NCBI GenBank assembly: GCA_028279595.1
Contig: JANQNK010000001.1
Span: 96,001 to 160,000, forward strand
From: Thermoplasmatota archaeon
GTDB taxonomy: Archaea > Thermoplasmatota > JAKEGO01
Length of the DNA stretch: 64,000 bases
Direction: 5' to 3'
Shown here: in pieces, positions 46,078 to 58,719 of the stretch
Layout: every line of letters starts with the position of its first letter
Numbering within the stretch: position 1 is the stretch's first letter
The notes under the pieces: generated by a model
The model's database searches: none
What the model was told of the DNA's origin: nothing
The model's input: the letters and a program-made list of their open reading frames with translations, nothing else
Translations under genes and position numbers: made by a program

Positions 46078-47619
46078 ATGACCGCCCTCACCTTCTTTGG
46101 GGGTGTCTCCGAGGTCGGAGGCAACACGATCCTCCTCGAAACTGACGGTCTCCGGGTCCTCATGGACTTCGGTGTCAGTTTCGAAAGGAAGGGGCGTTTC
46201 TTCGAGGAGTTCGTTCAGGTCAGGAACAGGACCCACCTCAGGGACTCCATCGTTCTCGGCCTCGTTCCCCCGCTCGACGGGCTGTACAGGAGCGACCTGG
46301 AGTCTCCACACGGCCTCGAGTCGCTTCAGGTCTACAGGGAGCATCCCGAGCTCTGGCAGACCAGTGTCGTTCCCTGGGAGGAGTCCGAGGACCGTGTCGA
46401 CGCCATGCTACTCACCCACGCCCACCTGGACCACTCTGCCCACATCCCGCTCATGGACCCCCGGATCCCGATCTACTGTTCCGGCGATACCCGCATCCTG
46501 CTGGAGACCATGGACGATATGGACTCCGGAGTGGAATCCGAGTTCGTGAGGACGACGACGTGGGGATTGAAGTCGACGAAGGGCGGGAAGTTCCCCGGAT
46601 CGCCGAAGATCGGTGAGGTGGAGACGACGGACCGGCTCTACCACACCTTCAGACCTCCCGCCAAGTTCAAGATCGAGGACATCGAGGTATCCGCCTTCCC
46701 GGTCGACCACTCCGTCCCCGGGGCCGTCGCGTTCGTCCTTTACACGAGCGACCTGACGATAGCCTACACAGGGGACTTCAGGCTCCACGGGGACCACTCA
46801 CACTGGACCTCCGAGTTCTTCAGCCAGATCGCCGGCGAGGTGGACGTCTTCATCACCGAGGGGACCAGGATACACGAGGAGAGCACCGACAGCGAGCAGG
46901 CCGTCAGGGACGAGGCCACCGCACTGATAGAGAACTCCAACGGCCTGGTGATGGTCGGCTACTCGTGGAAGGACCTGATGCGCACGAAGTCGATGCTCGA
47001 GGTCTCCAGGCGGACTGGACGCGAGCTCGTCATCTCGCCCAGGACGGCGTACTTCCTTTACAAGATGGGCTCCCACGTCGAGGCGATCGTCGGCCTCAAC
47101 GTGTATACCCCGAGGAAAGGCTCGATGATCTACGCACCGAACGATTATTCCGCCGAGAAGTACCTCGCCGGATACGCCCTCGACTGGTCGGGGGACAAAC
47201 CTGATATGACCCACCTCAACGACGGCGTGCGGGCATACGATATCGCCAGGAACCCGAACAGGTACCTCCTCCACCTAGATCTCTTCTCGTTCAACGAGCT
47301 GCTCGACCTCGGAAGGCTCGAGGGGAGCATCTATCTCAAGGCCCAGAGCGAGCCCTTCAGCGAGGAGATGTCCATAGGCGAGGACAGGATCTTGAACTGG
47401 TTCTCCTTCTGGAACATCAATCCGCCCGACCACATGCCGATCGACATCCGCGCCTCCGGCCACGCCGCCGGACCGGACATCCATGCTGCGATAGAGATGG
47501 TCCAGCCCAGGCTCCTCGTACCGGTGCACACCGACCACCCCGAGATGTTCCCCGACAACATCAACATGCTGAACCCCGAGGTCGGCGTCAGGTACGACCT
47601 GTCGTCGTTGGTGCAATAG
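46078..47619 (+). CDS. MBL-fold beta-CASP (RNase J-like) hydrolase
   Basis: GGVSEVGGN, THAHLDH, VDHS, YTGDFR, ITEGT, ASGHA, PVHT. Confidence 0.85.
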   Translation: MTALTFFGGVSEVGGNTILLETDGLRVLMDFGVSFERKGRFFEEFVQVRNRTHLRDSIVLGLVPPLDGLYRSDLESPHGLESLQVYREHPELWQTSVVPWEESEDRVDAMLLTHAHLDHSAHIPLMDPRIPIYCSGDTRILLETMDDMDSGVESEFVRTTTWGLKSTKGGKFPGSPKIGEVETTDRLYHTFRPPAKFKIEDIEVSAFPVDHSVPGAVAFVLYTSDLTIAYTGDFRLHGDHSHWTSEFFSQIAGEVDVFITEGTRIHEESTDSEQAVRDEATALIENSNGLVMVGYSWKDLMRTKSMLEVSRRTGRELVISPRTAYFLYKMGSHVEAIVGLNVYTPRKGSMIYAPNDYSAEKYLAGYALDWSGDKPDMTHLNDGVRAYDIARNPNRYLLHLDLFSFNELLDLGRLEGSIYLKAQSEPFSEEMSIGEDRILNWFSFWNINPPDHMPIDIRASGHAAGPDIHAAIEMVQPRLLVPVHTDHPEMFPDNINMLNPEVGVRYDLSSLVQ

Positions 47620-47704
47620 AAGTGGAATTCCCTGTCGTTATCTTATTATACACCTTCTCTATAATACCCCCACTCGTGGCTCAGGTCACGTCGTCCAGCA
47701 AAAT

Positions 47705-47807
47705 GCCCCGGTAGTGTCACGGGTGAAGTCCAAGGCCTTCACCCTGCTCGGGCGATCTGATCGCCCTCGAGCGACCTATCATCAGGCCTCGATGATAACC
47801 GGGTCCA
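47705..47807 (+). ncRNA. Candidate tRNA-Asp-derived structured RNA / mini-element
   Basis: Shares GCCCCGGTAGTGT and AGCG.CCTATCATC with tRNA-Asp; three hairpins; closing stem GCCCCGGT/ACCGGGTC with one mismatch. Confidence 0.5.
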
Positions 47808-47817
47808 TTAGCAATAT

Positions 47818-47890
47818 GCCCCGGTAGTGTAGCGGCCTATCATCTCGGCCTGTCGAGCCGAGGACACGGATTCAAATTCCGTCCGGGGCG
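47818..47890 (+). tRNA. tRNA-Asp(GTC)
   Basis: GCCCCGG acceptor, TCGGC-CTGTCGA-GCCGA anticodon arm, ACGGA-TTCAAAT-TCCGT T arm; CCA not encoded. Confidence 0.97.
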
Positions 47891-48010
47891 CTCTTCCTTC
47901 ATTTTACCTGTAGTCGCGCCCCGGACTCTCGTGAAGTTAATCCAACAGATTTCTGCCATTGATATTACAATGTGTACGGTCATAACCTTCACGATCCGTC
48001 CGGGGCGTTC

Positions 48011-48715
48011 TTAGAGCTCGTCCTTCAACTTCGTCAGGACGTACTCGCATCCCATGTGGGACCGGTCGAACCCCGTGACGACGTAACCGTCCGACATGAG
48101 TTCCGTGAACTTCTTCCTCGTCCTCTCGCGCCAGACCTTCGCAGCCTTCGGGTCCTCCGCCTTGATACCGGAAATGTCCTCCGGGATCTGCACCCTCTCG
48201 GGCGCCCCCTCGGATTCGGGTCTGACCGTCAGGTACCAGGATACGTAGAACCTGTCGGTGGCGAGGTCCCCATACAGTGTGGAATCGATCTTCCCGTAGT
48301 AATCAACGAGATATCTCTCGGCGATCCCGCCGATCTTCCTAATGTAGAGGTTGGCGTTGGCAGCCTCGAGCGGATCGTATGTCCAGAAGATGCGTTCGAT
48401 CCCCATCTCCCTGTAGGTCCAGGCCATCTCGGACATGAGCTCGTGGGCGATCCCCTTCGACGCGTGCGATGGGACCACTGCGACCTGATGCATCAAGGCG
48501 GAGCGCCAGTCAGGTCCCGGCAGTCCGAGAAGATAGCCAACGGGCCTGTCCCCGTCGTAGTAACCTAGGACGAGCCCCACAGGGTCCAGCTCGTCCGCAA
48601 TGGCCCTCAGAAGATGTACGGGAACGGTCTCGAGGTCGTTCTTTCCCCATGCGCCCTGCTGGACGTCGAGCATTCCACGGAGTTCGTCCACCTCGCGGAG
48701 ACGGACGACGCCGAT
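48011..48715 (-). CDS. GNAT-family acetyltransferase (COG3375-like); probable ATC start
   Basis: QQGAWG, GLVLGYY, HQVAV..KGIA, WTYDPLEAANANLYIRKIG, YYG, TDRF. Confidence 0.85.
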   Translation of the reverse strand: MGVVRLREVDELRGMLDVQQGAWGKNDLETVPVHLLRAIADELDPVGLVLGYYDGDRPVGYLLGLPGPDWRSALMHQVAVVPSHASKGIAHELMSEMAWTYREMGIERIFWTYDPLEAANANLYIRKIGGIAERYLVDYYGKIDSTLYGDLATDRFYVSWYLTVRPESEGAPERVQIPEDISGIKAEDPKAAKVWRERTRKKFTELMSDGYVVTGFDRSHMGCEYVLTKLKDEL

Positions 48716-48719
48716 GACA

Positions 48720-50216
48720 TCACTTCCCGGGACTTACCCTCGGCGCGTTCCTCAGCCATTCGATGTCGCTCATGTAGAGGTCTCGGATGTCCTTCAGACC
48801 GTGTTCGAGCATCGCAAGACGTTCGAGCCCAAGCCCCCACGCAAGGACGGGATGCCTGGCGCCCACGGGTTCGGTCACCTCGGGCCTGAAGATCCCTGCC
48901 CCGCCCAGCTCCATCCATTGGCCGTTGTAGAACACCTCGACCTCGAGGGACGGCTCGGTGTACGGGAAGTATCCGGGCCTTATCCTGACGTTGTCGAAGC
49001 CCATCCTGCTGTAGAACTCCTTCAGAAGGCCGACGAGCATTCCGAGGCTCGCCCCCTCCTCCATGACGATCCCCTCGATCTGGTAGAACTCCGGCAGGTG
49101 CGTCGAGTCTATCGCTTCCCTCCGGAAGACCGTCTCGATCGAGAAGACGCGGACCGGCGGCTCAGGGTCCTCCCTCAGCCGCCTGATGGTGTTGACAGTG
49201 GTGTGTGTCCTAAGGAGCATCCTGCGGCCGACGTCCTCCGACCAATCGTAACCCCATCCCCGGGACCCCGTGTCCCCACCGTCGCTGTGGACCGCTGCTA
49301 TGCGCTCCATGAGATCGCTATCGAGTTCGGGGCACTCGACCCCGTCTATGTACAATGTATCCTGAAGTTCCCTGGCCGGGTGGTCCTGGGGAATGAAGAG
49401 AACGTCCATGTTCCAGAAGGCCGACTCGACGAACTGACCCTCTATCTCCGTGAATCCCATCTCGAGGAATATCCGTCTGACGCGCTCGATCGTCCTCGTC
49501 ATCGGGTGCTCTCCACCTCCGGAGAGCGCCGGGGACATCGCGTCTATGTCGTACCTCCTGACGGAGACGTCCTTCCAACCCCCGCTTTGAATGAGCTCCG
49601 GTGTGAGCTGGGAGACCTCGTCCCTCTCGGACAGGTCATCCTCGCCAAGGCCTGAAACGGCATCGGTCGGGACGATCATTCGCGATACGACCTCGTCACG
49701 CACCACGGCGCCTCCTCGTTTCCTGAGAAGTTCGAGCGCATCGACCTGGGTTTCCGTGAACTCTCCCTTGGTGGTCATTCCCCCCTCCTTCAGGGCATAC
49801 AGGACCTCAAGCTCCGGAGACCCGGAGTCAAGGGCGTTCCTGCCCTCATCCGTGATCGTGACGGAACCCGAATCAATAGCGATGAACGCCTTCCTCTTGA
49901 GCCATCCCAGCCCTATGGAGAAGTCCTTGGGGTCCATGCCGCAGCCGTCCTTCAGCTCGCCCATGGACATGCCGTCATGGACGGACGCCAGGAGAACCAT
50001 CTCAGGCAGCCCCTCCTCGAGGAACTTCAGGCCCTCATCGCCGATGGAATAGACGACGTCGACCTCGTCCTCGATGGAGACGAGCCCCTTCTCCTTCAAC
50101 CAGGACGCGGCGTTCATGGCCTCGGGAGATGTCAGCCCTTCGATACCGTCGGGCGATACGGGACCGACGTCCCTCAGGGTCCTCAACACCCTCCGTTCAG
50201 CATTACTCAGGTCCAT
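48720..50216 (-). CDS. pheS: Phenylalanine--tRNA ligase alpha subunit
   Basis: FWNMDVLFIPQDHPARE, LLRTHTT, FRREAIDSTHLPEF, YFPYTEPS, AWGLGLER. Confidence 0.98.
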   Translation of the reverse strand: MDLSNAERRVLRTLRDVGPVSPDGIEGLTSPEAMNAASWLKEKGLVSIEDEVDVVYSIGDEGLKFLEEGLPEMVLLASVHDGMSMGELKDGCGMDPKDFSIGLGWLKRKAFIAIDSGSVTITDEGRNALDSGSPELEVLYALKEGGMTTKGEFTETQVDALELLRKRGGAVVRDEVVSRMIVPTDAVSGLGEDDLSERDEVSQLTPELIQSGGWKDVSVRRYDIDAMSPALSGGGEHPMTRTIERVRRIFLEMGFTEIEGQFVESAFWNMDVLFIPQDHPARELQDTLYIDGVECPELDSDLMERIAAVHSDGGDTGSRGWGYDWSEDVGRRMLLRTHTTVNTIRRLREDPEPPVRVFSIETVFRREAIDSTHLPEFYQIEGIVMEEGASLGMLVGLLKEFYSRMGFDNVRIRPGYFPYTEPSLEVEVFYNGQWMELGGAGIFRPEVTEPVGARHPVLAWGLGLERLAMLEHGLKDIRDLYMSDIEWLRNAPRVSPGK

Positions 50217-50267
50217 CCGTCCCTCGGAACGGTGTAGCGGTAATTAAAACTATCCGGTTTTCCGGGC

Positions 50268-50732
50268 TCAGATGAAGGGGCGGACGCTGGGCGATATCCG
50301 GACCTGGTACTTCTGCCCGCCGACCGAGACCGAGAAGATGACCTCCTTCCCCCGGGCCTTCCTCTTCGTCTTGGTCACCTCGTCGATGGGAAGGACCACG
50401 GTCTCCCTGAAACCCTTCTTGGCCCACCCTTTGGCCTGACCCATGAACTTCCGCCTGTCGTCGATCCAGCCGTGGCTCTCCGTCGCATAGGCGGTCATCG
50501 GGGGGATCCTGAGGAAGATGATGCGCCTGTCCGTCCTGTAGAGCTCTCCGGAACCAACGTCAGGGAAGACCATAGTTCCGAACAATCCGCCCCCCTTCGA
50601 GACCTCGCAACCTGCGTCCGTGTCCTGGACGACCACGACCTCGCCCTTCTCGAGGATGGGCACTCCCTTATCGTCGTGGATGCTCCCCAGCGGCTCCTTC
50701 ACGTTGCCGAAGTTGTAGTAGGCGATCTCCAT
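50268..50732 (-). CDS. Hypothetical soluble protein, possible PH/GRAM-like fold
   Basis: LEKGEVVV, GELYRTDRRIIF, LPIDEV; starts 6 nt downstream of the giant surface gene. Confidence 0.55.
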   Translation of the reverse strand: MEIAYYNFGNVKEPLGSIHDDKGVPILEKGEVVVVQDTDAGCEVSKGGGLFGTMVFPDVGSGELYRTDRRIIFLRIPPMTAYATESHGWIDDRRKFMGQAKGWAKKGFRETVVLPIDEVTKTKRKARGKEVIFSVSVGGQKYQVRISPSVRPFI

Positions 50733-50738
50733 GGGGGT

Positions 50739-53700
50739 CTACTCCCAGTCCACGTCCTCGTCGTCTTCGTCCTCATCCTCGTCGGCGTCTTCGTCCTCGT
50801 CGTCGAAGGACCAGTCGACATCCTCGTCTTCGTCCTTCTCCTTCTCTTCCTTGTCCTTCGCCGCTGCGCCCTTGACGGGCTTCTTCGTCCTGGTGAGGAG
50901 TCCGAGGATCAATCCGAGTGCTATCGGGATGACGATGGCGAGCACGATGATGAGCATGAAGAAGTCGCTACCAGTTTCACCATCGTCCCCGTTGGGGGGC
51001 TCCACACCCCTAATGCGGATCTCCTGGCCGGTGTTGTTGGTGACGGTTATCTGGTTCTTCCCGCTCGTCGCGGTGAAGGCGATCTCGTAGGTGCCGGAAT
51101 ATCTCATCTCCATCTTGATCTGGTAGGTGACACCGTCGATGTATTCCTGGGTCGTCGGTGTGTATCCAGATGTCCCGGTGTTCGGATTGATGGCATCCAG
51201 GTCGGTGACATTGTCGTTGTAACGGACCTTGATCTGTGTGGGCGCGTCCCCGTCCGGGTCCGAATAGACCACCGAGAACGTGAAGACGGTCGATGGAGTA
51301 CCACCCAATGGCGAGAACGTCATCTGATCCAGCAATGGAGCATTGTCGGCCTCCTCCACGGTGAACGGCCGCCATACGCTCGCTGTCTCCAACAGGCCGT
51401 CGGATGCGACGATCTGGTATCTGTAGGAATCGGCCCCGTAGTCGCCGTTGTCCGGTACGAAGGACCGCGAGTACTGGTAGTCCTTGCCGTCCCAGACGGA
51501 TTTGTCGGTCCTGTCCTTCTCGTCCATGTCGAAGGGTCCGTAGATCGTGCCGTCGCTCGTCCTCTCGAAGTACAGTTGGATGCTGTCAGGCCAGTTCTCG
51601 TCCCGGTCTGAGTAGTTGCACTTGAACCTTACCTGGGTGTTCTCGTCGGGCAGCAGCGGGGCGAACTGGACCTGGATCTCAGGGAGATAATCCACGGGGA
51701 AAGCTCCGTCGAGCTCGGCGACCTCGAAACCGTCCGAGGTCTCGATCTCGTAGGACCTGAAGCCGTTGTGGAGGTTGTCGATCTTCATCCAGAACTCCTT
51801 GCCGTTGAAGGTCGAGACATCGTCCACGTCCCTCTCGTACAGCGGAAGCGTGGGACTGCCCCACGTGTAGATGCGTCCCTCGAGGGCCATGGTGAGGTAT
51901 TCCACCGGGTCGTTATCGGGATCGGTGACGGTGATCATGAGGTCGTAGGGCGTGAACTCGTTCCCCTGGGCGGGATCGTAATCGAACTCGATCGAGGGAG
52001 CCGTGTTGTAGACCGTGATGTATTGGCTCGCTGTCATGTCCGTGAAGATGCCGTCGCTGACGTGGAAGTAGAACTCGTAGATGTCGTGGGGGGCGCCGCT
52101 GGTCGTGAATGCGTAGTAGGTCCCGAAGACCGGGGAGATGGCGTCCTGACGCTCCATCGGCCACGACCTGTTGTTGAAGAAGACGTAGGGCGCACCGTCG
52201 ACCGCGCTGTTGTCCGGATACTTCCCGTCGCTTTGCTGGTATTTTACCCTGAACGTGAAAGAGGTGGACGCGGTCCCGTTGTCCGGAGAGACCCTACCCT
52301 CGCTCAGTACCGGTCTCACGTAGTTAACGGACAGGTCCTCTGCCACCGGTGTCGGGGTCCAGTATCCGAGCGAGTCATTGGCGATGAAGTAGTAGGGGAA
52401 GATCCCGTTGTCAAGGATCAGGGATATGTTGTACATCACCCCGTTGACATAGTCGGTGGTGTTGTCCGACTTGGACATCGTGTGGTTGACACCGTCGATG
52501 TTCATGTACACCGTGCCCGGGACGTCGCCCTCGACATCGGTGTAGTTGATCGTGAAGTTGATCCAGGGATACCCGTCCGGGAATCCCCGTGTCTCGACCG
52601 GGTCCACCATGACCGGCGGTGCATTGTCCACGAAGACCTCCGACTGGTTGGTGGTCGTTGTCTCGCGGGTGTCGTTGAACTCGAACCAGTAGGTGTAGGT
52701 GTTACGCATGAGTGGGAGACTGATCTCGTAATGGGCGTTCGTGAAGTCGGTGTCGATCGTGGTCATGGTGTGCTCGACGCCGTTGACCCATACGCTGCTG
52801 ACCGTGGGCTCCTGACCCTCGTCGTCCATGTAGATGCAGTGGAATGCGACCGGTATGTCCGACGTGTAGTCGTCCGCCTGCACGTATCCGTTCAGGGTCG
52901 CCGGGTCGTTCGCGGTTACCAGGACCTTCCCTTCCTTTGACGTATCGACGTCCCTTGTCCCGATCCATGTCCCCGTGTCGATCTCGATCTCGGTGAGGTT
53001 GTAATGCTTGCCCGACAGGTCAGCGTATATGTACGGAACATCGATGTCGTAGATCATTCCCAGCGAGTCGGTCCTCGCGTCCGTTCCCGAGAATCCGGTG
53101 GTGGCGTATATCGTCCCCTCCTCGCAGGTGACCTTCACGTCGGCGTTCTGTGCGGCCGTTCCGTCGACCAGGTCGACCTCGATGTCTATCTCGTTCCGCG
53201 AGGAGACCCATCCGCTCCCCTGGGCGTTGAACGTGCCGGTGCTGTTGTTCAGATATTCGACATTTCTCAGGATAAGGCGCGAGTCCTGCACCACTCCATC
53301 ATATCCGTAGAACGTGTCCCCGTAGAAGGTCACGTCGGTGATCGTGGCATTGCACCTGTCCTGGAGGTACACCGCCTCCCTCAGGTTCCCGAAGTAGATG
53401 TTGGTCGCAGTGACATCGGAGCCGTCGTAGAGGTAGAGCCCCTTCTTCTGGGTCTCCGCATCGGTCCCGTTGAGGTACATGTCGGTCAGGACGACGGATG
53501 AGCTGTCGGGGACGTAGACGCAGGTCCCCTCGGCCTCGATGCTCCCTGTCACGTCGATGAGCGAGCTGTCGTCGATCCTAAGTCCCCTGGAGGGTAAGGC
53601 CCACAGGTCCAGTGTGAAATCGATATCCGTGACGGAATCGATGTCGATCCCATACGCGGTCAGCCCGGTGCCTGTCATCTCCACGGTGATGGCGGTGCAT

Positions 53701-54356
53701 CCTCCCTGGAGCTCGATCCCGGTCGGGGCTCCCTCGATGTACAGGTCCCTTGAGCCGGACGCACCAATGGTGACGTCGGAACACGTGAAGGCCGATATCC
53801 CGAACTTCACCGAATCCCGTATCTCGAGCCCCTCGAGGGTGGAGTCGCCGACCTTGGACAGGAACACGCCCCAGCTGTTCTCGCTGAAGTCACAGTCCGT
53901 CACCAGCAGGCTGGACACCTCTTCCGCGAAGACCCCGTACTTGTTGTCGTACAGCTCGCAGGTCTCGATGGTCACGGCGTCCGCGTCGACGTACACACCC
54001 GCGTAGACCTGACCTCCGCCCCCGAGCTTGGAGTTGGAGAAGTTGAGGTTAAGCAGGGTGACCCCGTCTGCGATGACGTAGGATCCGTTGCCGGTCCCGT
54101 TCGCATCGATAATGACCTTCCCGGCGTTCCTCCTGATGGTCAGGTTCGCCACGTCCACGACGAGGTTCCCGTCGTAGGAGCCGTTGTTGACCAGGACCAG
54201 GTCCCCGTCCGCCGCGTTGTCGATGGCGTCCTGAATGTTGTCGTAGTCGAATCCGCCGCTGTCGTCAACGGTGATCGTGGCGCCTTCCGAGGTAATACCA
54301 ACCAATGAAAGGAGAGTGAACGCTACTAGCACCATCACAAGATACCTGACAGACAT
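50739..54356 (-). CDS. Large surface protein: parallel beta-helix (NosD/pectin-lyase-like) + six Ig-like repeats + TM + acidic tail
   Basis: ATITVDDSGGFDYDNIQDAIDNAADGD, beta-helix repeats, F.V.Y.D.DGD.P modules, TM, D/E tail. Confidence 0.85.
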   Translation of the reverse strand: MSVRYLVMVLVAFTLLSLVGITSEGATITVDDSGGFDYDNIQDAIDNAADGDLVLVNNGSYDGNLVVDVANLTIRRNAGKVIIDANGTGNGSYVIADGVTLLNLNFSNSKLGGGGQVYAGVYVDADAVTIETCELYDNKYGVFAEEVSSLLVTDCDFSENSWGVFLSKVGDSTLEGLEIRDSVKFGISAFTCSDVTIGASGSRDLYIEGAPTGIELQGGCTAITVEMTGTGLTAYGIDIDSVTDIDFTLDLWALPSRGLRIDDSSLIDVTGSIEAEGTCVYVPDSSSVVLTDMYLNGTDAETQKKGLYLYDGSDVTATNIYFGNLREAVYLQDRCNATITDVTFYGDTFYGYDGVVQDSRLILRNVEYLNNSTGTFNAQGSGWVSSRNEIDIEVDLVDGTAAQNADVKVTCEEGTIYATTGFSGTDARTDSLGMIYDIDVPYIYADLSGKHYNLTEIEIDTGTWIGTRDVDTSKEGKVLVTANDPATLNGYVQADDYTSDIPVAFHCIYMDDEGQEPTVSSVWVNGVEHTMTTIDTDFTNAHYEISLPLMRNTYTYWFEFNDTRETTTTNQSEVFVDNAPPVMVDPVETRGFPDGYPWINFTINYTDVEGDVPGTVYMNIDGVNHTMSKSDNTTDYVNGVMYNISLILDNGIFPYYFIANDSLGYWTPTPVAEDLSVNYVRPVLSEGRVSPDNGTASTSFTFRVKYQQSDGKYPDNSAVDGAPYVFFNNRSWPMERQDAISPVFGTYYAFTTSGAPHDIYEFYFHVSDGIFTDMTASQYITVYNTAPSIEFDYDPAQGNEFTPYDLMITVTDPDNDPVEYLTMALEGRIYTWGSPTLPLYERDVDDVSTFNGKEFWMKIDNLHNGFRSYEIETSDGFEVAELDGAFPVDYLPEIQVQFAPLLPDENTQVRFKCNYSDRDENWPDSIQLYFERTSDGTIYGPFDMDEKDRTDKSVWDGKDYQYSRSFVPDNGDYGADSYRYQIVASDGLLETASVWRPFTVEEADNAPLLDQMTFSPLGGTPSTVFTFSVVYSDPDGDAPTQIKVRYNDNVTDLDAINPNTGTSGYTPTTQEYIDGVTYQIKMEMRYSGTYEIAFTATSGKNQITVTNNTGQEIRIRGVEPPNGDDGETGSDFFMLIIVLAIVIPIALGLILGLLTRTKKPVKGAAAKDKEEKEKDEDEDVDWSFDDEDEDADEDEDEDDEDVDWE

Positions 54357-54399
54357 GGAACATCGCCAGCCCATTTAAACCACGGATTGGATATATAAT

Positions 54400-56442
54400 T
54401 TACTGTTTGATATTGTGAATCCGGCGCCAATTCCGCCTTGACCATTCTATTGCAGCACGCGCCGTCGCGGGTCCCATGTGGGGAAGCCCCTCGATATCGG
54501 CCATCTGCGCCTCCCCCAGCGCCTGCAGGTCTCGGTATCCAGCACCGTACAGTACCCGGCCCCTTCTCCGACCGATCCCGGGTACCCGCATGAGCGGGAG
54601 CAACTCCCGTTTGACCCCGCTCGCGAGCCTTCTCGAGACCTCGCGGGCCGCCTCGCCGACACCCTTGTCCTCGAGGGCCGCTATCTCGGAGTATGCACCA
54701 CCCAGCCAAGCGGCCGTCTCCCTCAGGTTGTGCAGGTCGCCTGGACCTATGCCGAACGTCTCGGTGATCTGCGCCTCCGGCATCTCCTCGATCCATGCCA
54801 TGAGGACGGCGGCGGTCCTGATCGCGTCGTCGTGGTCCTCCGCCGGAACGAGCGGCGTCAGCCAGTCGGTCTCCTCCGTGAACCTGTCGATGTCGTCGGT
54901 GTCCTTTCGCGCTGAAAGCCGGTACATGTCCGGACACGATGCTATGGCCATCAGGTGGTGGAACGCCCCCTCCGGCATGACGGCCACCGCCTGGCGGAAT
55001 AGGACCGCGCTGGCCGGATCGACGTAGACCCGGGAGGTGATCACTCCGAGGTCCGTCGGCCTTATCCCCTCCTCGATGTCGATGAACTCGCCCTCCTCGA
55101 GCATCTCGAGGGTGTGCTCGAGGGCGCTCTCCATGGTCCACAGGTCGGTGGTGTGGGCATAGTATGTATTCGAAAGGAAGTCCTCGATGTCGGCCTCCGA
55201 CCGGCATTCCCCCGTCGCTATGGCCGCTAGGATGTGAACCCTCATGGCCCTCGGGTCGAGGAGCTTCGAGGTTATGGGCTCGACCTCGCCGAGGATGTAG
55301 GCATCGACGGCCTTCCGGGCAGCCCTGTCGTTGCCTGCCACGATCACAGCCTCACCGTGGGGGTCCAGTCCCGGTCGGCCGGCACGCCCCATCATCTGGC
55401 GTATCTCCAGCACCGGGATGTCGGTCATTCCGACACCTCGCTCGAACCGCCTCGTGGTCAGGACGAGTACCCTTCTCGCGGGCAGGTTTATCCCGGCGGC
55501 CAGGGTCGGCGTGGCGAAGAGGACCTTGACGGAACCCTCGCGGAAGGCCGTCTCGACGATCCTCCTCATCTCGCTGCCGAGTCCTGCGTGGTGGAATCCT
55601 GCCCCTCCCTTCATCGCTGCTGTCAATGACTTTCCGATCTCGCCCCAGTCCTCATCGGGTTCGATCGCCGGACCGGATATTCCGAGGGTGGCGCCGAAGG
55701 ACGATGCGTTCTTCGCCGCCTCCTTCCGGCTTCTCGTGAAGACAAGGACCTGTCCGCCCTCGGCGACGGTCTCCCCGACCATGTCCTCCCACCCGGGGCC
55801 CGGTTTCCTCGTCTCACCGTCGATGAAATCGAGAACGCCCTTGGTGAAGACCCCCTCGCGCAATCTGACGGGTCGCCAGTCCGACGTGACCAGCTTCGCA
55901 TCGAGCCACAGGGCGATCCCCATTGCATTTCCGACGGTCGCCGAGAGTGCGACAATCTGGACGCCCCGCCGCTTCATCATCGCCAGGACGATCTCGAGGG
56001 TCGGTCCCCGCCGTTGGTCGGTGATCAGATGGACCTCGTCCGCGATGCATACGCCGACCTCGTCGAAGAAATCGTTGCCATGACGGAGGAGGGCGTCCGC
56101 CTTCTCGGAAGTTACTACGACCACATCGTTGTCCTTCAACGCCCTGTCGTCCGTCGACAGGTCGCCTGTGGAGATGCCCACCTTATACTCGGGAAGGACC
56201 GTCTTGAGGTCCTCGTACTTCTCCGCAGCCAGGGCTCTGAGGGGCACGATGTACAGACCCTTCCTCCCCGACCTAAGGCCGTTGAGGAGCGCCGCGTATG
56301 CGACGAGGCTCTTCCCGGCCGCCGTCGGCACGCTCACGAGGACGCTGCGACCCTCCAAGACATGAGGGATCGCCTCCTCCTGGGGCGGATAGAGGCTCTC
56401 TATGCCCATCCGCTCGAGCATGGGTCCGAGGACGTCGTCCAT
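54400..56442 (-). CDS. hel308: ATP-dependent DNA helicase Hel308 (Ski2-like)
   Basis: LYPPQ, PTAAGKS, PLRALA, DEVH, SAT, FHHAGL, TPTLAAGINLPA, QMMGRAGRP. Confidence 0.95.
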   Translation of the reverse strand: MDDVLGPMLERMGIESLYPPQEEAIPHVLEGRSVLVSVPTAAGKSLVAYAALLNGLRSGRKGLYIVPLRALAAEKYEDLKTVLPEYKVGISTGDLSTDDRALKDNDVVVVTSEKADALLRHGNDFFDEVGVCIADEVHLITDQRRGPTLEIVLAMMKRRGVQIVALSATVGNAMGIALWLDAKLVTSDWRPVRLREGVFTKGVLDFIDGETRKPGPGWEDMVGETVAEGGQVLVFTRSRKEAAKNASSFGATLGISGPAIEPDEDWGEIGKSLTAAMKGGAGFHHAGLGSEMRRIVETAFREGSVKVLFATPTLAAGINLPARRVLVLTTRRFERGVGMTDIPVLEIRQMMGRAGRPGLDPHGEAVIVAGNDRAARKAVDAYILGEVEPITSKLLDPRAMRVHILAAIATGECRSEADIEDFLSNTYYAHTTDLWTMESALEHTLEMLEEGEFIDIEEGIRPTDLGVITSRVYVDPASAVLFRQAVAVMPEGAFHHLMAIASCPDMYRLSARKDTDDIDRFTEETDWLTPLVPAEDHDDAIRTAAVLMAWIEEMPEAQITETFGIGPGDLHNLRETAAWLGGAYSEIAALEDKGVGEAAREVSRRLASGVKRELLPLMRVPGIGRRRGRVLYGAGYRDLQALGEAQMADIEGLPHMGPATARAAIEWSRRNWRRIHNIKQ

Positions 56443-56568
56443 GGGCGGCCAAGGCCCAGAGGGTTCAAAAGCATTCCCTGTAGGGGTCGGTGAAATTGCT
56501 TTCTTCCGGATGGTAGGTTCCGGACCTGTAGTATAAACGACGGGTGACATGGGAATATCGGTGAGGAT

Positions 56569-57060
56569 GTGAGGCGAACCCTCGACGAGCTGATAGACAG
56601 TGTGCTCGAGAACGAGACCAGGCGCAGGATATACATGCACCTGCTGAGGACCCCGGGAGACCACTACCGCGGGATCATGAGAGCAGTGGGGATCGGCAAC
56701 GGCAACCTGTCGTACCACATGCAGGTGATGGAGAAGGCGAGGACAGTGAAGGTCCGGAGGACCCCGGGACGGACGAGGTACTATCCCGCCGAGATCAACC
56801 CAGGACCAGTCCAGAATGACCTGAGGCGGTCACTGATGTTCACGATCGCAACGTCACCCGGGGTCACTGACCGAAATCTGTCGGTCAAGTTCGAGCGTTC
56901 TGTAAGATGGATACGGGAGAACCTTGTCATCCTTGAAGATTCAGACCTCATCGGGATAACAAGAGGCAGAGCGACCTGGAGATGTTTCCTACAGGTGCCA
57001 GAGGAGAACGTTTTCTCGATGAATCCGAGTGGGCTGTTGCATTCACCGACTGGAATATAG
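56569..57060 (+). CDS. Soluble double winged-helix transcription regulator
   Basis: LENETRRRIY..PGDHYRGI..GNLSYHM; second HTH SPGVTDRNLS. Confidence 0.75.
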   Translation: MRRTLDELIDSVLENETRRRIYMHLLRTPGDHYRGIMRAVGIGNGNLSYHMQVMEKARTVKVRRTPGRTRYYPAEINPGPVQNDLRRSLMFTIATSPGVTDRNLSVKFERSVRWIRENLVILEDSDLIGITRGRATWRCFLQVPEENVFSMNPSGLLHSPTGI

Positions 57061-57063
57061 AAG

Positions 57064-57187
57064 CGGACCCGCGGGGATTCGCGCAGCAGATGCTTCGCAT
57101 CAGCGCGGTTCGCGAACAGATTGAGAGATTATTGCCAGCCAGTTCACGAACAACCCTATTGGAGAGCGGGTTCTCAATCGCGGGACC
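57064..57187 (-). ncRNA. Candidate tRNA-Arg-derived structured RNA / att-flanked mini-element
   Basis: Ends in a 19-nt copy of the tRNA-Arg 3' end; its 5' GGTCCCGCG pairs with that end; several internal hairpins. Confidence 0.5.
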
Positions 57188-57210
57188 TCTAATTTACGTA
57201 TGAAAATAGG

Positions 57211-57284
57211 CGGACCCGCGGGGATTCGAACCCCGGACATCCAGCTTAGAAGGCTGGCGCCCTATCCAGCTAGGCCACGGGCCC
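57211..57284 (-). tRNA. tRNA-Arg(TCT)
   Basis: GGGCCCG acceptor, CCAGC-CTTCTAA-GCTGG anticodon arm, CGGGG-TTCGAAT-CCCCG T arm. Confidence 0.97.
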
Positions 57285-57379
57285 ATTACAGCAAAGTGAT
57301 ATTAAAGGCATATTATAAGTTACCTCTCCAGAACCGAACCTTTATTATAGCCGACCCTTTTGACCGCTCAGGTGAGACA

Positions 57380-57853
57380 TTGACTGAGACCATCGAAGCA
57401 CTCGTCGAGGGAGGCAAGGCTACTCCCGGTCCGCCCCTGGGTCCGGCACTCGGTCCGCTGGGAGTGAACATCGGCGAGATCATCAAGACGATCAACGAGA
57501 AGACGAAGGACTTCGACGGGATGAAGGTGCCCGTCAAGGTGAAGGTCAACCCCAAGACCAAGGCGTTCGAGATATCCATCGGAACGCCGCCCGTCAGCGC
57601 TCTCGTTCTCGCGGAGATCGGGATCGACAAGGGCTCGGGCGCCAGGCTCGACTCGGTCGCGGGAAACCTGACCATCGAACAGGCGGCGAAGATCGCGCGG
57701 ATGAAGACGGACTCCCTCCTCGGCAACGACATGAAGGCGAGGGTGAAGGAGGTCGTCGGGTCCTGCGTGTCCATGGGCGTCACCGTCGAGGGCAGGGACC
57801 CGAAGGCCGCCATCAAGGCGATCGATGCCGGCGACCTCATCGTGCCCGAGTGA
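57380..57853 (+). CDS. rpl11: 50S ribosomal protein L11
   Basis: VEGGKATPGPPLGPALGPLG, GMKVPVKV, GSCVSMGVTVEG. TTG start after AGGTGA. Confidence 0.97.
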   Translation: MTETIEALVEGGKATPGPPLGPALGPLGVNIGEIIKTINEKTKDFDGMKVPVKVKVNPKTKAFEISIGTPPVSALVLAEIGIDKGSGARLDSVAGNLTIEQAAKIARMKTDSLLGNDMKARVKEVVGSCVSMGVTVEGRDPKAAIKAIDAGDLIVPE

Positions 57854-57993
57854 GCTGTCGCGACGATCACGACGGCCCTGCGGGGTTCGACGACCGACGT
57901 GGTGCGGACCGGACATCGTCGTTTGTCGTTACACGTTATACAAAAGATACTTATAGGGCACCTTGTTAGGGAAAACCCCACACTGTGATGCCA

Positions 57994-58719
57994 ATGATCC
58001 AGGGGGTAATAGGAAACTTCGAGTGGACACCAGTCTCGATACTCTCGCTCCTAGGCCAGGTACTTGCAGTGCTGTTCGTCGTGATAGGCGCCGTTCTCCT
58101 GTTCTCCCTGGTCATCGGATACCGGGCCTACAGGAGGGGAAAGGTCCGGATGCCCGGCCCCATCCTCCTCGTGATCGATATCTTCTACACCCCGTTGAAG
58201 AAGCTCCTCAAGGTCTTCCGGAAGGACCCGAGGGTCGTCGACGACATCTCGATCGTCCTCCGCAACCACGTCAACATGGAGAACTACGCGATCACCAAGC
58301 CGGAGGAGCGCGTCGTCCTCGTACCGCAGTGCCTCCGGCACACCCGGTGCCCCGCGCCGATGAGCTCGGAGGACGGATTCACCTGCAGGGTCTGCGGTCT
58401 CTGCGACATTGCGAAGATTTATAAAGTGGGAAACGCAATCGGGACAGAGGTCTACATTGCGCCCGGGGGCAGATTCGCTAAGAGGATTCTCTCTCGGTCC
58501 AAACATGGGGGCAAAAAGGCTGTACTCGGTGTAGCCTGCCATACCGATCTATATGAGGGCCTTCTCGCGGCGAAGATAGGGGATATCCCTGCACAGGGGG
58601 TGCCCTTGAAGACCGAGGGGTGCGTGGCGACCAAAGTCGACATCGACAGGGTAATAGACATGATGCTCGTGGGACTGAACGCGGAAGAGACCGATCGGGT
58701 CAGGGAGTTGGTGGCGTGA
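57994..58719 (+). CDS. DUF116 family Cys-rich membrane protein
   Basis: PQCLRHTRCPA, CRVCGLC, GVAC, GC..T.VD. Confidence 0.85.
   Translation: MIQGVIGNFEWTPVSILSLLGQVLAVLFVVIGAVLLFSLVIGYRAYRRGKVRMPGPILLVIDIFYTPLKKLLKVFRKDPRVVDDISIVLRNHVNMENYAITKPEERVVLVPQCLRHTRCPAPMSSEDGFTCRVCGLCDIAKIYKVGNAIGTEVYIAPGGRFAKRILSRSKHGGKKAVLGVACHTDLYEGLLAAKIGDIPAQGVPLKTEGCVATKVDIDRVIDMMLVGLNAEETDRVRELVA

What the first reader, a model, noticed from the sequence alone, without database searches (positions are those of the whole stretch)
47703..57284. Both tRNA genes carry a co-oriented, tRNA-matched, multi-hairpin companion element: a possible undescribed class of tRNA-derived RNAs or mini-elements
Seen: tRNA-Asp (47818-47890,+) is preceded by a ~103-nt element (47705-47807), and tRNA-Arg (57211-57284,-) is followed by a ~124-nt element (57064-57187). 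Each shares an exact end with its own neighbouring tRNA (15 nt at the 5' end; 19 nt at the 3' end). Each closes with an 8-9 bp acceptor-like stem carrying one pyrimidine mismatch near the top (C.U at pair 2; U.U at pair 3) and contains about three hairpins. Neither has a canonical anticodon plus T-arm set. They show no obvious sequence similarity to each other, so the recurring feature is the architecture. Spacers of only ~10 and ~23 nt suggest co-transcription. Inference: (a) tRNA-mimic ncRNAs released by RNase P/Z, for example decoys for anticodon nucleases or integrases, or (b) ~113 and ~147 bp non-autonomous tRNA-targeting elements bounded by att-like repeats.
Basis: partly seen in the sequence, partly recalled or inferred. 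Interest (0 to 1): 0.85.

Follow-up and report, generated by a model that had tools for sequence, protein, structure and literature searches.

The report
Fold-back insertion modules flanking archaeal tRNAs
The odd folded stretches beside the aspartate and arginine tRNA genes are real: they belong to a genome-wide set of tiny gene-less DNA modules in an uncultured Thermoplasmata archaeon, each built around a direct and a mirror copy of its neighbouring tRNA's own end, and how they spread or what they do is still unknown.

Summary
tRNA-Asp has a 115-nt module upstream, as reported. tRNA-Arg(TCT) has a 147-nt module downstream. Each module has an exact direct copy of the tRNA's end (15, 13 and 19 nt) at its far side, an imperfect inverted copy at its near side, and hairpins in between.

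These are not isolated cases. In this genome 14 of 42 tRNAs carry such a 3' copy and 4 of 42 a 5' copy, against under 2% for non-cognate pairings. The Arg module belongs to a four-way-junction family with 16 copies, all beside tRNA genes. That family also occurs in two related genera and shows strong covariation. No Rfam family matches.

The Asp modules are conserved at the orthologous locus of another genus, with compensating changes. The repeat geometry equals attL/attR of a genuine integrase island at tRNA-Pro in the same genome.

Against simple integrase mobilisation: the modules have no enzyme and no parent element. No integrase was found in the two (incomplete) relatives that carry modules.

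Best reading (0.45): old, non-autonomous insertion modules specific for tRNA-gene ends. Their closest known analogues are E. coli tRNA-linked repeats and att-bounded integrase-less cassettes.

The scan has already reported this phenomenon on other pieces of this genome.

The parts
47643..47665 (+). Two candidate TATA boxes (47643-47650, 47658-47665) upstream of the 5' module. They are the likely promoter of pre-tRNA-Asp.
   Evidence: A position matrix trained on the 42 tRNA upstream regions puts most TATA starts at -29 to -39. For tRNA-Asp the best sites are at -175 and -160. The only other site, at -26, is at an atypical distance. In G001 a TTTTAAATA box sits about 30 nt before the degenerate head copy.
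47703..47717 (+). Distal direct copy of the tRNA-Asp head: 2 leader bases plus tRNA positions 1-13.
   Evidence: Exact repeat of 47816-47830.
47718..47746 (+). Hairpin a of the 5' module (GGRTGA...TCAYCC type).
   Evidence: Fold. The composite motif recurs only behind the head copy of tRNA-Arg(CCT) on contig C5. It resembles hairpin H3 of the type-1 modules.
47747..47771 (+). Hairpin b of the 5' module.
   Evidence: Fold. The stem GGGCGA/TCGCCC is kept at the orthologous place in G001.
47772..47797 (+). Second piece of the head copy (about tRNA positions 14-34), folding back as hairpin c.
   Evidence: About 18 of 21 positions match the tRNA D-arm/anticodon-stem region on reading the sequences. 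Fold.
47798..47805 (+). Proximal inverted copy of the tRNA-Asp head. It closes the four-way junction with 47706-47712.
   Evidence: Fold. In G001 the equivalent closing stem is about 14 bp with different sequence.
47806..47817 (+). 12-nt linker between the 5' module and the tRNA.
   Evidence: Sequence.
47818..47890 (+). tRNA-Asp(GTC).
   Evidence: ARAGORN; Rfam RF00005, 56.8 bits.
47891..47915 (+). T-rich linker after tRNA-Asp (contains TTTT). Probable terminator region.
   Evidence: Sequence. The terminator role is an inference from archaeal oligo-T termination.
47916..47926 (+). Proximal inverted copy of the tRNA-Asp tail.
   Evidence: Pairs with 47997-48007 in the fold.
47927..47994 (+). 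Long hairpin of the Asp 3' module (base TCTCGTGAAG / CTTCACGA).
   Evidence: z -4.6 (RNA) and -5.9 (DNA). Same module type, in at least 2 tandem copies with compensating stem changes, behind tRNA-Asp of G001 and behind the displaced tRNA-Pro tail on C7.
47995..48007 (+). Distal direct copy of the tRNA-Asp tail (T-stem 3' strand plus acceptor 3' strand).
   Evidence: Exact repeat of 47878-47890.
57211..57284 (-). tRNA-Arg(TCT).
   Evidence: ARAGORN; Rfam RF00005, 66.2 bits.
57188..57210 (-). T-rich linker after tRNA-Arg (contains ATTTTCA).
   Evidence: Sequence.
57179..57187 (-). Proximal inverted copy of the tRNA-Arg tail (5' strand of closing stem P1, one T.T mismatch).
   Evidence: Fold and coordinates.
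57152..57172 (-). Hairpin H1 of the type-1 module (AACCC...GGGTT).
   Evidence: Conserved in all 24 aligned copies.
57108..57151 (-). Hairpin H2 (long, sequence-variable; 9 of 10 model pairs covary).
57080..57107 (-). Hairpin H3 with a GCGAAGC tip.
57063..57081 (-). Distal direct copy of the tRNA-Arg tail (T-loop 3' half to just past the discriminator base, 19 nt).
   Evidence: Exact repeat of 57210-57228.

Best explanation
What it is. The three non-coding stretches beside tRNA-Asp and tRNA-Arg(TCT) are tRNA-end fold-back modules. These are gene-less, hairpin-rich DNA cassettes of about 95-150 nt that sit directly against tRNA genes throughout this Thermoplasmata lineage. On the far side each has a direct copy of the neighbouring tRNA's terminal 13-22 nt. 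On the near side it has an imperfect inverted copy. In between are hairpins shared with modules at other tRNAs.

Proposed origin (inferred). DNA was inserted site-specifically into the tRNA gene, in the T-loop/3' end or, for 5' modules, in the D-loop/5' half. The incoming piece brought a replacement gene end and pushed the old end outward. This is the attL/attR geometry of tyrosine-integrase elements.

Current state. The modules have no enzyme of their own. They are now mostly inherited with the tRNA genes, are occasionally gained, lost or stacked, and their fold is kept by selection. The Asp 5' module is transcribed as the pre-tRNA-Asp leader.

Shown: anatomy, family membership, covariation, lineage distribution, and identical repeat geometry at a real island. 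Inferred: the insertion mechanism, the enzyme, and transcription.
For: 1. Genome-wide excess. 14/42 tRNAs have cognate 3' copies and 4/42 have 5' copies, against under 2% for non-cognate pairs. Inverted copies matching at >=11 of 12 positions occur at 8/42 tRNAs against 10/1622.
2. The Arg module matches covariance model R1 at 91 bits. All 16 strong hits in the genome lie beside tRNA genes.
3. The same family occurs in G001 (7 hits), G002 (1 weak hit) and one metagenome contig. In each genome the arms match that genome's own tRNA, and in several cases include CCA or trailer bases, so the copying happened at the DNA level.
4. The repeat extent equals the 18-nt attL/attR of a 14.6-kb island with an integrase gene ending 8 nt after tRNA-Pro. 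Older modules lie beyond that island's attR, as expected if insertions always enter at the true tRNA.
5. Modules form tandem stacks of mixed types, and occupancy differs between genomes.
6. [quoted passage not shown]
7. 5' modules mirror 3' modules, and the promoter stays with the displaced head copy.
Against: - No enzyme is linked to the modules. The island integrase family was not found in G001 or G002. PF00589 finds nothing in G001 (73% complete) and only one XerA-like gene in G002.
- No parent element is known. The island ends lack the module cores, and scans found no copy in viral contigs and only one more in metagenome contigs.
- There are no recent copies. The highest core identity between different tRNA loci is 0.78.
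- An integrase does not explain the inverted copy.
- Cores at different tRNAs of one genome are closer to each other than cores at the same tRNA in two genera. Strictly tRNA-specific att cassettes would not show this without gene conversion.
- Copies only 56-69% identical keep 95.8% of pairs. This points to selection on resident copies, so to some function in place, rather than to passive hitch-hiking.
- Empty and filled sites could not be aligned through their flanks.
Confidence: 0.45

Rival explanations
1. The modules act as RNA. They would be cis-acting parts of pre-tRNA transcripts, or small RNAs released from them, as E. coli tRNA-linked repeats (RrA/B/F) are. They might tune tRNA processing or termination, or serve as tRNA-end mimics. 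The inverted copy would hold the spare tRNA end in a helix so that it cannot mispair with the real tRNA.
For: - Structure is under purifying selection in resident, diverged copies: 95.8% of cells paired, 21 of 25 pairs with double changes, slid controls 31-47%. Core identities are only 0.56-0.69.
- G.U-type pairs exceed A.C-type 8 to 2 on the tRNA-sense strand. The Arg module folds better on that strand.
- The Asp 5' module lies between the only well-placed TATA boxes and the tRNA, so it should be in the primary transcript. Its four-way fold is conserved with compensating changes in another genus.
- The modules have been retained at tRNA-Asp and tRNA-Arg(TCT) since two genera split.
- E. coli TLRs downstream of rRNA operons are transcribed and processed (PMC8144298).
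Against:
- T-tracts in the linkers should terminate many tRNA transcripts before the 3' modules.
- No Rfam family matches, and there is no tRNA-like T arm for RNase P/Z or the CCA enzyme.
- H3 tips are mostly GCGNAGC / C-GNA-G (13 and 17 of 22). This motif is known for exceptional stability in single-stranded DNA rather than RNA (PMC13037366, PMC3201870).
- Direct copies include trailer bases, so they arose at the DNA level.
- An RNA role does not explain stacking or differing occupancy.
Confidence: 0.25
2. No dedicated mobile machinery exists. Spare tRNA-end copies and their mirror copies arise by replication template switching or fold-back repair at the palindromic T arm (TTCGAA) or D arm. 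The shared hairpin cargo then spreads between spare copies by homology-driven copying (ectopic gene conversion), using the conserved T-loop halves as short homology arms.
For: - The direct-inverted-direct arrangement of the same about 28 nt is the classic product of two template switches.
- In clean cases the H2-H3 cargo sits exactly inside the T-loop of the direct copy. A T-stem 5' strand plus TT comes first, then about 65 nt of insert, then the rest of the loop and the tail (Ser GCT, Lys CTT-1, Leu TAG).
- Cores are shared between different tRNAs of one genome while arms stay cognate.
- The design is symmetric at 5' and 3' ends.
- There is no co-occurrence with integrases.
Against: - The homology arms would be very short (5-9 nt).
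- The left flank of the cargo (nGGGTT) is common to nearly all tRNAs, so it is weak evidence.
- This model does not by itself explain why the hairpins are conserved by selection, nor why the phenomenon is confined to this order (0/29 loci in five other genomes).
- It was not tested directly.
Confidence: 0.15
3. The stretches are neutral scars: decayed remnants of ordinary integrated plasmids or viruses, or of tandem tRNA duplications.
For: Real islands with the same att repeat exist in the genome, one with a broken integrase gene. Partial tRNA copies left by integration are common in archaea (PMC9897764).
Against: There are 16 copies of one structured family of uniform size. Pairing is nearly perfect despite 30-45% sequence divergence. 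The modules are conserved at orthologous loci across genera and show no similarity to the island ends.
Confidence: 0.05
4. The module is a guide RNA of a transposon-type nuclease or recombinase: a TnpB omega-RNA-like scaffold with a 3' guide equal to the tRNA tail, or an IS110 bridge RNA.
For: The layout 'structured scaffold followed by 16-22 nt matching a nearby target' resembles TnpB reRNAs. CRISPR-associated transposons are known to home to tRNA genes (own knowledge).
Against: Searches of this genome (86% complete) found no TnpB zinc-ribbon domain over cut-off, no IS110 transposase, no Y1 transposase and no reverse transcriptase. The guide would be sequestered by the inverted copy.
Confidence: 0.03

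Closest known systems
tRNA-linked repeats (TLRs) of Escherichia coli (Egan and Landy 1978; Rudd 1999; as described in PMC8144298)
   Same: Short non-coding repeats lie directly downstream of tRNA (or 5S rRNA) genes, with 1-5 per locus. Each ends in 18-19 bp identical to the 3' end of the gene upstream. Their function is unknown for the tRNA-linked members. Here the copies are 13-22 nt and there are 1-3 modules per locus.
   Different: There is no sequence or structure homology: no Rfam family matches at E<=1. The archaeal modules also carry an inverted copy of the tRNA end, occur at 5' ends too, and form four-way or long-hairpin folds with strong covariation. They are in a different domain of life.
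attL/attR duplications of tyrosine-integrase elements in tRNA genes, and integrase-less att-bounded remnants (cis-mobilisable elements, CIMEs; own knowledge for CIMEs, PMC8371274 for archaeal integrases)
   Same: A direct repeat of the tRNA end leaves the tRNA intact. The repeat runs from the T-loop to the 3' end (or covers the 5' half). Accretion is tandem, with the newest insert next to the tRNA. An island with the same 18-nt repeat exists in this genome.
   Different: The modules are 95-150 nt with no genes and no similarity to any island. They have a mirror copy of the tRNA end and conserved hairpins. No integrase was found in two genomes that carry them. Excision has not been observed.
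Integron attC sites / chromosomal cassette arrays (own knowledge)
   Same: They are recombination-site-like elements that are conserved in structure but variable in sequence. They cluster by host genome, stack at one entry site, and probably act as folded single strands. The GCGNAGC tips and the strand asymmetry seen here hint at single-strand folding.
   Different: No integron integrase, no R'/R'' core sites and no cargo genes are present. The entry site here is a tRNA gene. This is a resemblance in logic only and was not tested.
Bacterial REP/BIME and other palindromic intergenic repeats, and MITEs (own knowledge)
   Same: They are small, gene-less, hairpin-forming, multi-copy and non-autonomous.
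   Different: Those are not tied to tRNA ends and do not carry target-derived arms. No parental IS or transposase was found here. The duplicated target length is variable (12-27 nt), unlike fixed target-site duplications.

Membership tests
tRNA / tRNA-like RNA (Rfam RF00005) | Cloverleaf with D, anticodon and T arms recognised by tRNA models | tested here: not met
   ARAGORN finds only the two true tRNAs in the window. cmscan at E<=1 over 46500-58500 gives only the two tRNAs.
E. coli-type tRNA-linked repeats (TLR) | The 3' end of the repeat is identical to the last ~18-19 bp of the tRNA/rRNA gene immediately upstream | tested here: met
   19 nt for Arg and 13 nt for Asp in the window; 12-22 nt at 14 of 42 tRNAs. 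Definition taken from PMC8144298.
E. coli-type tRNA-linked repeats (TLR) | One to five copies in tandem inside the tRNA operon | tested here: met
   One to three stacked modules per locus.
E. coli-type tRNA-linked repeats (TLR) | Homology in sequence or structure to the described TLR RNAs | tested here: not met
   No Rfam family other than tRNA matches at E<=1. E. coli TLR sequences were not compared directly.
E. coli-type tRNA-linked repeats (TLR) | Transcribed with the operon and processed | not testable with these tools
There is only a promoter-position argument for the Asp 5' module.
att-bounded integrative element or its integrase-less remnant (CIME-like) | Direct repeat of a tRNA-gene end that leaves an intact tRNA, with the extent typical of integrase crossover sublocations | tested here: met
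   The same extent is seen at the bona fide island at tRNA-Pro. Sublocations per PMC8371274.
att-bounded integrative element or its integrase-less remnant (CIME-like) | Internal sequence related to a parental integrase-bearing element | tested here: not met
   Island ends show no module core. R1 hits lie only at tRNA flanks. Pattern scans found no module copy in viral contigs and one more in metagenome contigs.
att-bounded integrative element or its integrase-less remnant (CIME-like) | A cognate integrase present in genomes that carry the elements | tested here: inconclusive
   Seven tyrosine recombinase genes in G000. None in G001 (73% complete) and one XerA-like gene in G002 (82% complete).
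att-bounded integrative element or its integrase-less remnant (CIME-like) | Observed excision or integration (empty site, circular junction) | not testable with these tools
   Reads were not available. Flanks of filled and unfilled loci in relatives are not alignable. The only other assembly found has the same layout and no DNA on hand.
MITE derived from an insertion sequence | Terminal inverted repeats shared with a parental IS, plus a fixed-length target-site duplication | tested here: not met
   The arms derive from the target tRNA and differ at each locus. Duplication length varies from 12 to 27 nt. No TnpB, IS110 or Y1 transposase was found.
TnpB/IscB-type guide RNA | Associated nuclease gene in the genome | tested here: not met
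   PF07282 gives only a sub-threshold hit in a 738-aa ORF.

The most novel reading that the evidence does not exclude
The modules could be a still-active, undescribed system that docks onto the loops of tRNA genes (T-loop 54/56, D-loop 13/14) and builds its own arms from whichever tRNA it lands beside. This would be a target-templated insertion mechanism with no known enzyme. Alternatively, they could be functional tRNA-end-mimicking RNAs that co-evolve with each tRNA and control its maturation. Either reading would make them the archaeal key to the 45-year-old puzzle of tRNA-linked repeats.
Probability: 0.25. Interest if true: 0.85.

Novelty: new variant of a known kind. Interest (0 to 1): 0.6.

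Why it matters
About a third or more of the tRNA genes in this archaeal lineage carry structured companions that copy the tRNA's own end in both orientations and keep their fold under selection. Full-text searches of the held paper library found no description of this in archaea.

The nearest parallel, the E. coli tRNA-linked repeats, has had no explanation since 1978. A lineage with many diverged, covarying copies at both gene ends offers a much richer data set for working out two things: how such repeats arise (integrase-type insertion, homology-driven spread or template switching), and whether they serve tRNA expression.

There are practical consequences too. These modules break assemblies at tRNA loci and create partial tRNA copies that can be mis-annotated. 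They also mark tRNA genes as layered insertion hot spots.

Tried and rejected
- Rfam at E<=1 gave nothing but the two tRNAs.
- TnpB, reverse transcriptase, IS110 and Y1 transposase searches of the genome found nothing, so the guide-RNA, retroelement and IS200/605-derivative ideas were dropped.
- I first read the Asp 3' module as a decayed island remnant, because it shares 12 nt with the end of the tRNA-Pro island. I rejected this after finding the same module type, with compensating changes, behind tRNA-Asp of another genus and behind the displaced tRNA-Pro tail.
- BHB-intron or split-tRNA reading: the ends of the H2-H3 insert cannot form the central 4-bp helix of a bulge-helix-bulge motif (by eye on the sequences). 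It was not pursued.
- C/D-box, H/ACA or K-turn guide RNA: H3 is a regular helix with a single bulged A, and no boxes are present (by eye).
- A viral-contig hit to the H3 hairpin was only the hairpin.
- The metagenome pattern scan found only one more copy.
- Empty-site comparison failed. The tRNA-Thr(CGT) and tRNA-Arg(TCT) loci of relatives are not syntenic downstream, and G002's 'empty' Arg locus turned out to hold a degenerate module. My exact-match occupancy counts are therefore underestimates.
- The look-up of encoding contigs found one other assembly with the same gene spacing but no DNA.
- The gap-tolerant alignment of tails to modules was clean for only 3 of 12 modules.

Full report
**1. 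What is in the window**

ARAGORN and Rfam agree on two tRNA genes: tRNA-Asp(GTC) at 47818-47890(+) and tRNA-Arg(TCT) at 57211-57284(-).

- The head of tRNA-Asp, with the 2 bases before it (15 nt), recurs at 47703-47717.
- The last 19 nt of the tRNA-Arg gene region recur at 57063-57081.
- A third repeat was missed: the last 13 nt of tRNA-Asp recur at 47995-48007.

So tRNA-Asp is flanked on both sides, and tRNA-Arg on its 3' side, by a short non-coding module.

The surrounding genes are ordinary chromosomal ones: a metallo-beta-lactamase-fold RNase-like protein, a GNAT acetyltransferase, PheRS alpha, a beta-helix surface protein, a Hel308-type helicase, an HTH protein and uL11. There is no recombinase between the two tRNAs.

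**2. Anatomy**

All three modules share one design.
- Next to the tRNA lies a short linker. After the 3' ends it is T-rich.
- Then comes an imperfect inverted copy of the tRNA's own end.
- Then hairpins.
- At the far side comes the exact direct copy of the tRNA end.

The inverted and direct copies pair, so each module folds on itself.
- The Arg module is a four-way junction: P1 57179-57187 with 57065-57073, H1 57152-57172, H2 57108-57151, H3 57080-57107.
- The Asp 3' module is one long hairpin on a base made of the two tail copies.
- The Asp 5' module is the mirror image of a 3' module. It has the head copy, two hairpins, a second piece of head copy that folds back, the inverted head copy, a 12-nt linker and then the tRNA.

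Folding energies are well below those of shuffles: z -4.2 to -5.9 for the Asp modules and -2.3 to -2.6 for the Arg module on the tRNA strand. The Arg module gives only -1.3 to -1.4 on the opposite strand.

**3. Not a coincidence, and not confined to the window**

I laid the whole assembly out (2.29 Mb, 21 contigs, 86% complete) and compared every tRNA with its own flanks.
- 14 of 42 tRNAs have a copy of at least 12 nt of their last 30 nt within 350 nt downstream.
- 4 of 42 have a copy of their head upstream.
- 8 of 42 have an inverted tail copy matching at 11 or more of 12 positions within 90 nt.
- Pairing tRNAs with flanks of other tRNAs gives 29, 11 and 10 of 1622.

Offsets cluster at 100-165 nt, with second copies near 280-300 nt. 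These are stacks of one to three modules. In five other high-quality genomes of the phylum, none of 29 tRNA loci shows such a copy.

**4. Families**

The modules are not unrelated.

*Type 1 (the Arg module).* It belongs to a family with conserved H1 (GAACCC...GGGTT), a long variable H2 and an H3 that usually ends in GCGAAGC.
- A covariance model built from nine copies finds 16 strong matches in the genome. Every one lies beside a tRNA gene, and the window's copy scores 91 bits.
- The family is also present in the only other genus of the family (G001, seven hits; probably the MAG 'Thermoplasmata archaeon PMV_4.75').
- It is weakly present in another family of the order (G002), and once in the JGI metagenome contigs.
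- It was not found in 58 other genomes of the phylum or in viral contigs.
- On 24 aligned copies, 95.8% of cells are paired and 21 of 25 pairs show changes on both sides. Versions slid by 1-3 columns pair at 31-47%. This alignment was fitted to the model, which favours it somewhat.
- An independent MAFFT/RNAalifold run on nine copies had already shown 13 of 23 pairs with double changes.

*The Asp 3' module.* It shares its hairpin base (TCTCG...CGA TCCG) with modules behind the tRNA-Pro tail on contig C7 and with those behind tRNA-Asp of G001. Six of the eight stem pairs show compensating changes.

*The Asp 5' module.* Its first hairpin recurs behind the head copy of tRNA-Arg(CCT). It resembles H3 of type 1, so even the two 'dissimilar' elements of the finding share a building block.

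**5. Relatives**

Contig C124 of G001 is syntenic with the window, with tRNA-Asp and tRNA-Arg(TCT) 10 kb apart.
- Its tRNA-Arg carries a type-1 module whose tail copy follows that genome's own, different, tRNA tail.
- Its tRNA-Asp carries at least two tandem 3' modules of the same type as here.
- It also carries an orthologous 5' module with a degenerate head copy, a roughly 14-bp closing stem of different sequence and the same middle hairpin.
- In several loci the direct copy, or the pairing of the inverted copy, extends into CCA or the first trailer bases. The copying therefore took place on DNA, not from mature tRNA.

Occupancy differs between the three genomes. For example, Thr(CGT) and Val(TAC) are occupied only here and Val(GAC) only in G002. 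My exact-match criterion undercounts, though: G002's 'empty' tRNA-Arg(TCT) holds a degenerate module.

Core sequences do not follow the tRNA. The G001 Arg core is closest to the G001 His cores (0.78), not to the Arg core here, whose nearest relatives are other modules of this genome (0.63-0.65).

**6. How the repeats compare with real integration**

The genome has seven tyrosine-recombinase genes, four of them right beside tRNA genes.
- At tRNA-Pro(TGG) a 330-aa integrase gene ends 8 nt after the tRNA.
- An 18-nt copy of the tRNA tail (T-loop half to the 3' end) lies 14.6 kb downstream. This is a textbook attL/attR pair.
- The module repeats have the same extent.
- Beyond that island's attR lie three hairpin modules of the Asp 3' type. 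The island therefore entered at the true tRNA and pushed an older module stack outward.
[quoted passage not shown] One family uses the 5' half, and tandem integration is known (PMC8371274).
- For tRNA-Asp the only TATA-like boxes at a sensible distance lie upstream of the head copy (47643-47665). tRNA genes in this genome typically have theirs 29-39 nt before the gene. In G001 a TATA box sits about 30 nt before the degenerate head copy.

This is what insertion into the gene's 5' part would leave: the old promoter and old head displaced upstream, and the module transcribed as a leader of about 115 nt.

**7. What does not fit a simple integrase story**

- The island integrase family was not found in G001 or G002. 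The Pfam model finds no tyrosine recombinase in G001 (73% complete) and one XerA-like gene in G002.
- There is no parent element and no similarity to the island ends.
- There is no recent copy: the maximum identity between loci is 0.78.
- An integrase gives no reason for the inverted copy.
- Copies that are only 56-69% identical keep almost all their base pairs. This means selection acts on resident copies.
- G.T-type pairs outnumber A.C-type 8 to 2 on the tRNA-sense strand, so that strand is the folded one, either as RNA or as single-stranded DNA.
- The H3 tips are GCGNAGC in 13 of 22 copies and C-GNA-G in 17 of 22. This motif is known as an exceptionally stable DNA mini-hairpin (PMC13037366, PMC3201870). 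That is a hint, not a proof, that the fold matters in single-stranded DNA.
- In three clean cases the H2-H3 pair sits exactly inside the T-loop of an otherwise complete T-arm-plus-tail copy. This would also fit spread of the hairpin cargo between spare tail copies by short-homology copying.

**8. Verdict**

The two elements of the finding, plus a third, are members of lineage-specific families of tRNA-end fold-back modules.

Ranked explanations:
- Best (0.45): old, non-autonomous insertions into tRNA-gene ends with att-like geometry, now inherited with the tRNA genes and kept folded by selection.
- RNA function (0.25). This is most plausible for the co-transcribed Asp 5' leader.
- Enzyme-free spread by template switching and gene conversion (0.15).
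- Neutral scars (0.05).
- Nuclease guide RNAs (0.03). No TnpB, RT, IS110 or Y1 transposase was found.

The closest described things are the E. coli tRNA-linked repeats (PMC8144298) and att-bounded integrase-less cassettes. Full-text searches turned up no archaeal description.

**9. Relation to earlier work of this scan**

The same phenomenon has already been reported by this scan on other pieces of this genome and in other archaea. I used those notes as leads, in particular the TLR paper, and re-tested the claims on this window.

New here:
- the mirror-image 5' module and its likely transcription;
- conservation of both Asp modules across genera;
- the ordering of modules relative to a real island;
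- the lack of co-occurrence with integrases;
- the argument from pair conservation in diverged resident copies.

Noticed in passing
Outside the window: G000 contig C7:7343-21947: A 14.6-kb integrated element at tRNA-Pro(TGG). A 330-aa tyrosine integrase gene ends 8 nt after the tRNA, and an 18-nt attR copy of the tRNA tail lies at 21930-21947. Three hairpin modules lie just beyond attR.
   Followed up: partly
Outside the window: G000 contig C14:112295-113278: A paralogue (57% identical) of the island integrase beside tRNA-Arg(TCG) has an in-frame TAA, so that island is probably decaying. No distal tail copy of at least 15 nt was found for it.
   Followed up: no
L031 and L034 (G001, downstream of the tRNA-Arg(TCT) module and of tRNA-Thr(CGT)): A further repeat of about 110 nt follows both loci in G001. 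It starts GTACTTTTTCGAA, contains GAGAAAAAGCACGT and ends in a GGGCGAATGG hairpin. It is a different tRNA-flank element that I did not analyse.
   Followed up: no
window 50753-50851: A run of imperfect 9- to 15-nt repeats (CGTCCTCGTCGTCTTCGTCC...) lies inside the 1211-aa beta-helix/NosD-like surface-protein gene on the minus strand. It probably encodes an acidic low-complexity linker.
   Followed up: no
window 57200-57853: The longest ORF for ribosomal protein uL11 (217 aa, also called so in a Logan assembly) starts inside the tRNA-Arg gene on the opposite strand. The real start is probably near 57390, so the 217-aa call looks over-extended.
   Followed up: no
G002 contig C136:16617-17608: The only tyrosine recombinase found in G002 (278-aa frame, XerA-like score) lies about 400 nt from a long-arm tRNA gene.
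   Followed up: no
window 57211-57284: tRNA-Arg(TCT) has a G3.U70 wobble pair in its acceptor stem. The inverted arm of its module has T at the matching position, giving a T.T mismatch. The arm is therefore neither a perfect complement of the tail nor a copy of the tRNA's 5' strand.
   Followed up: no
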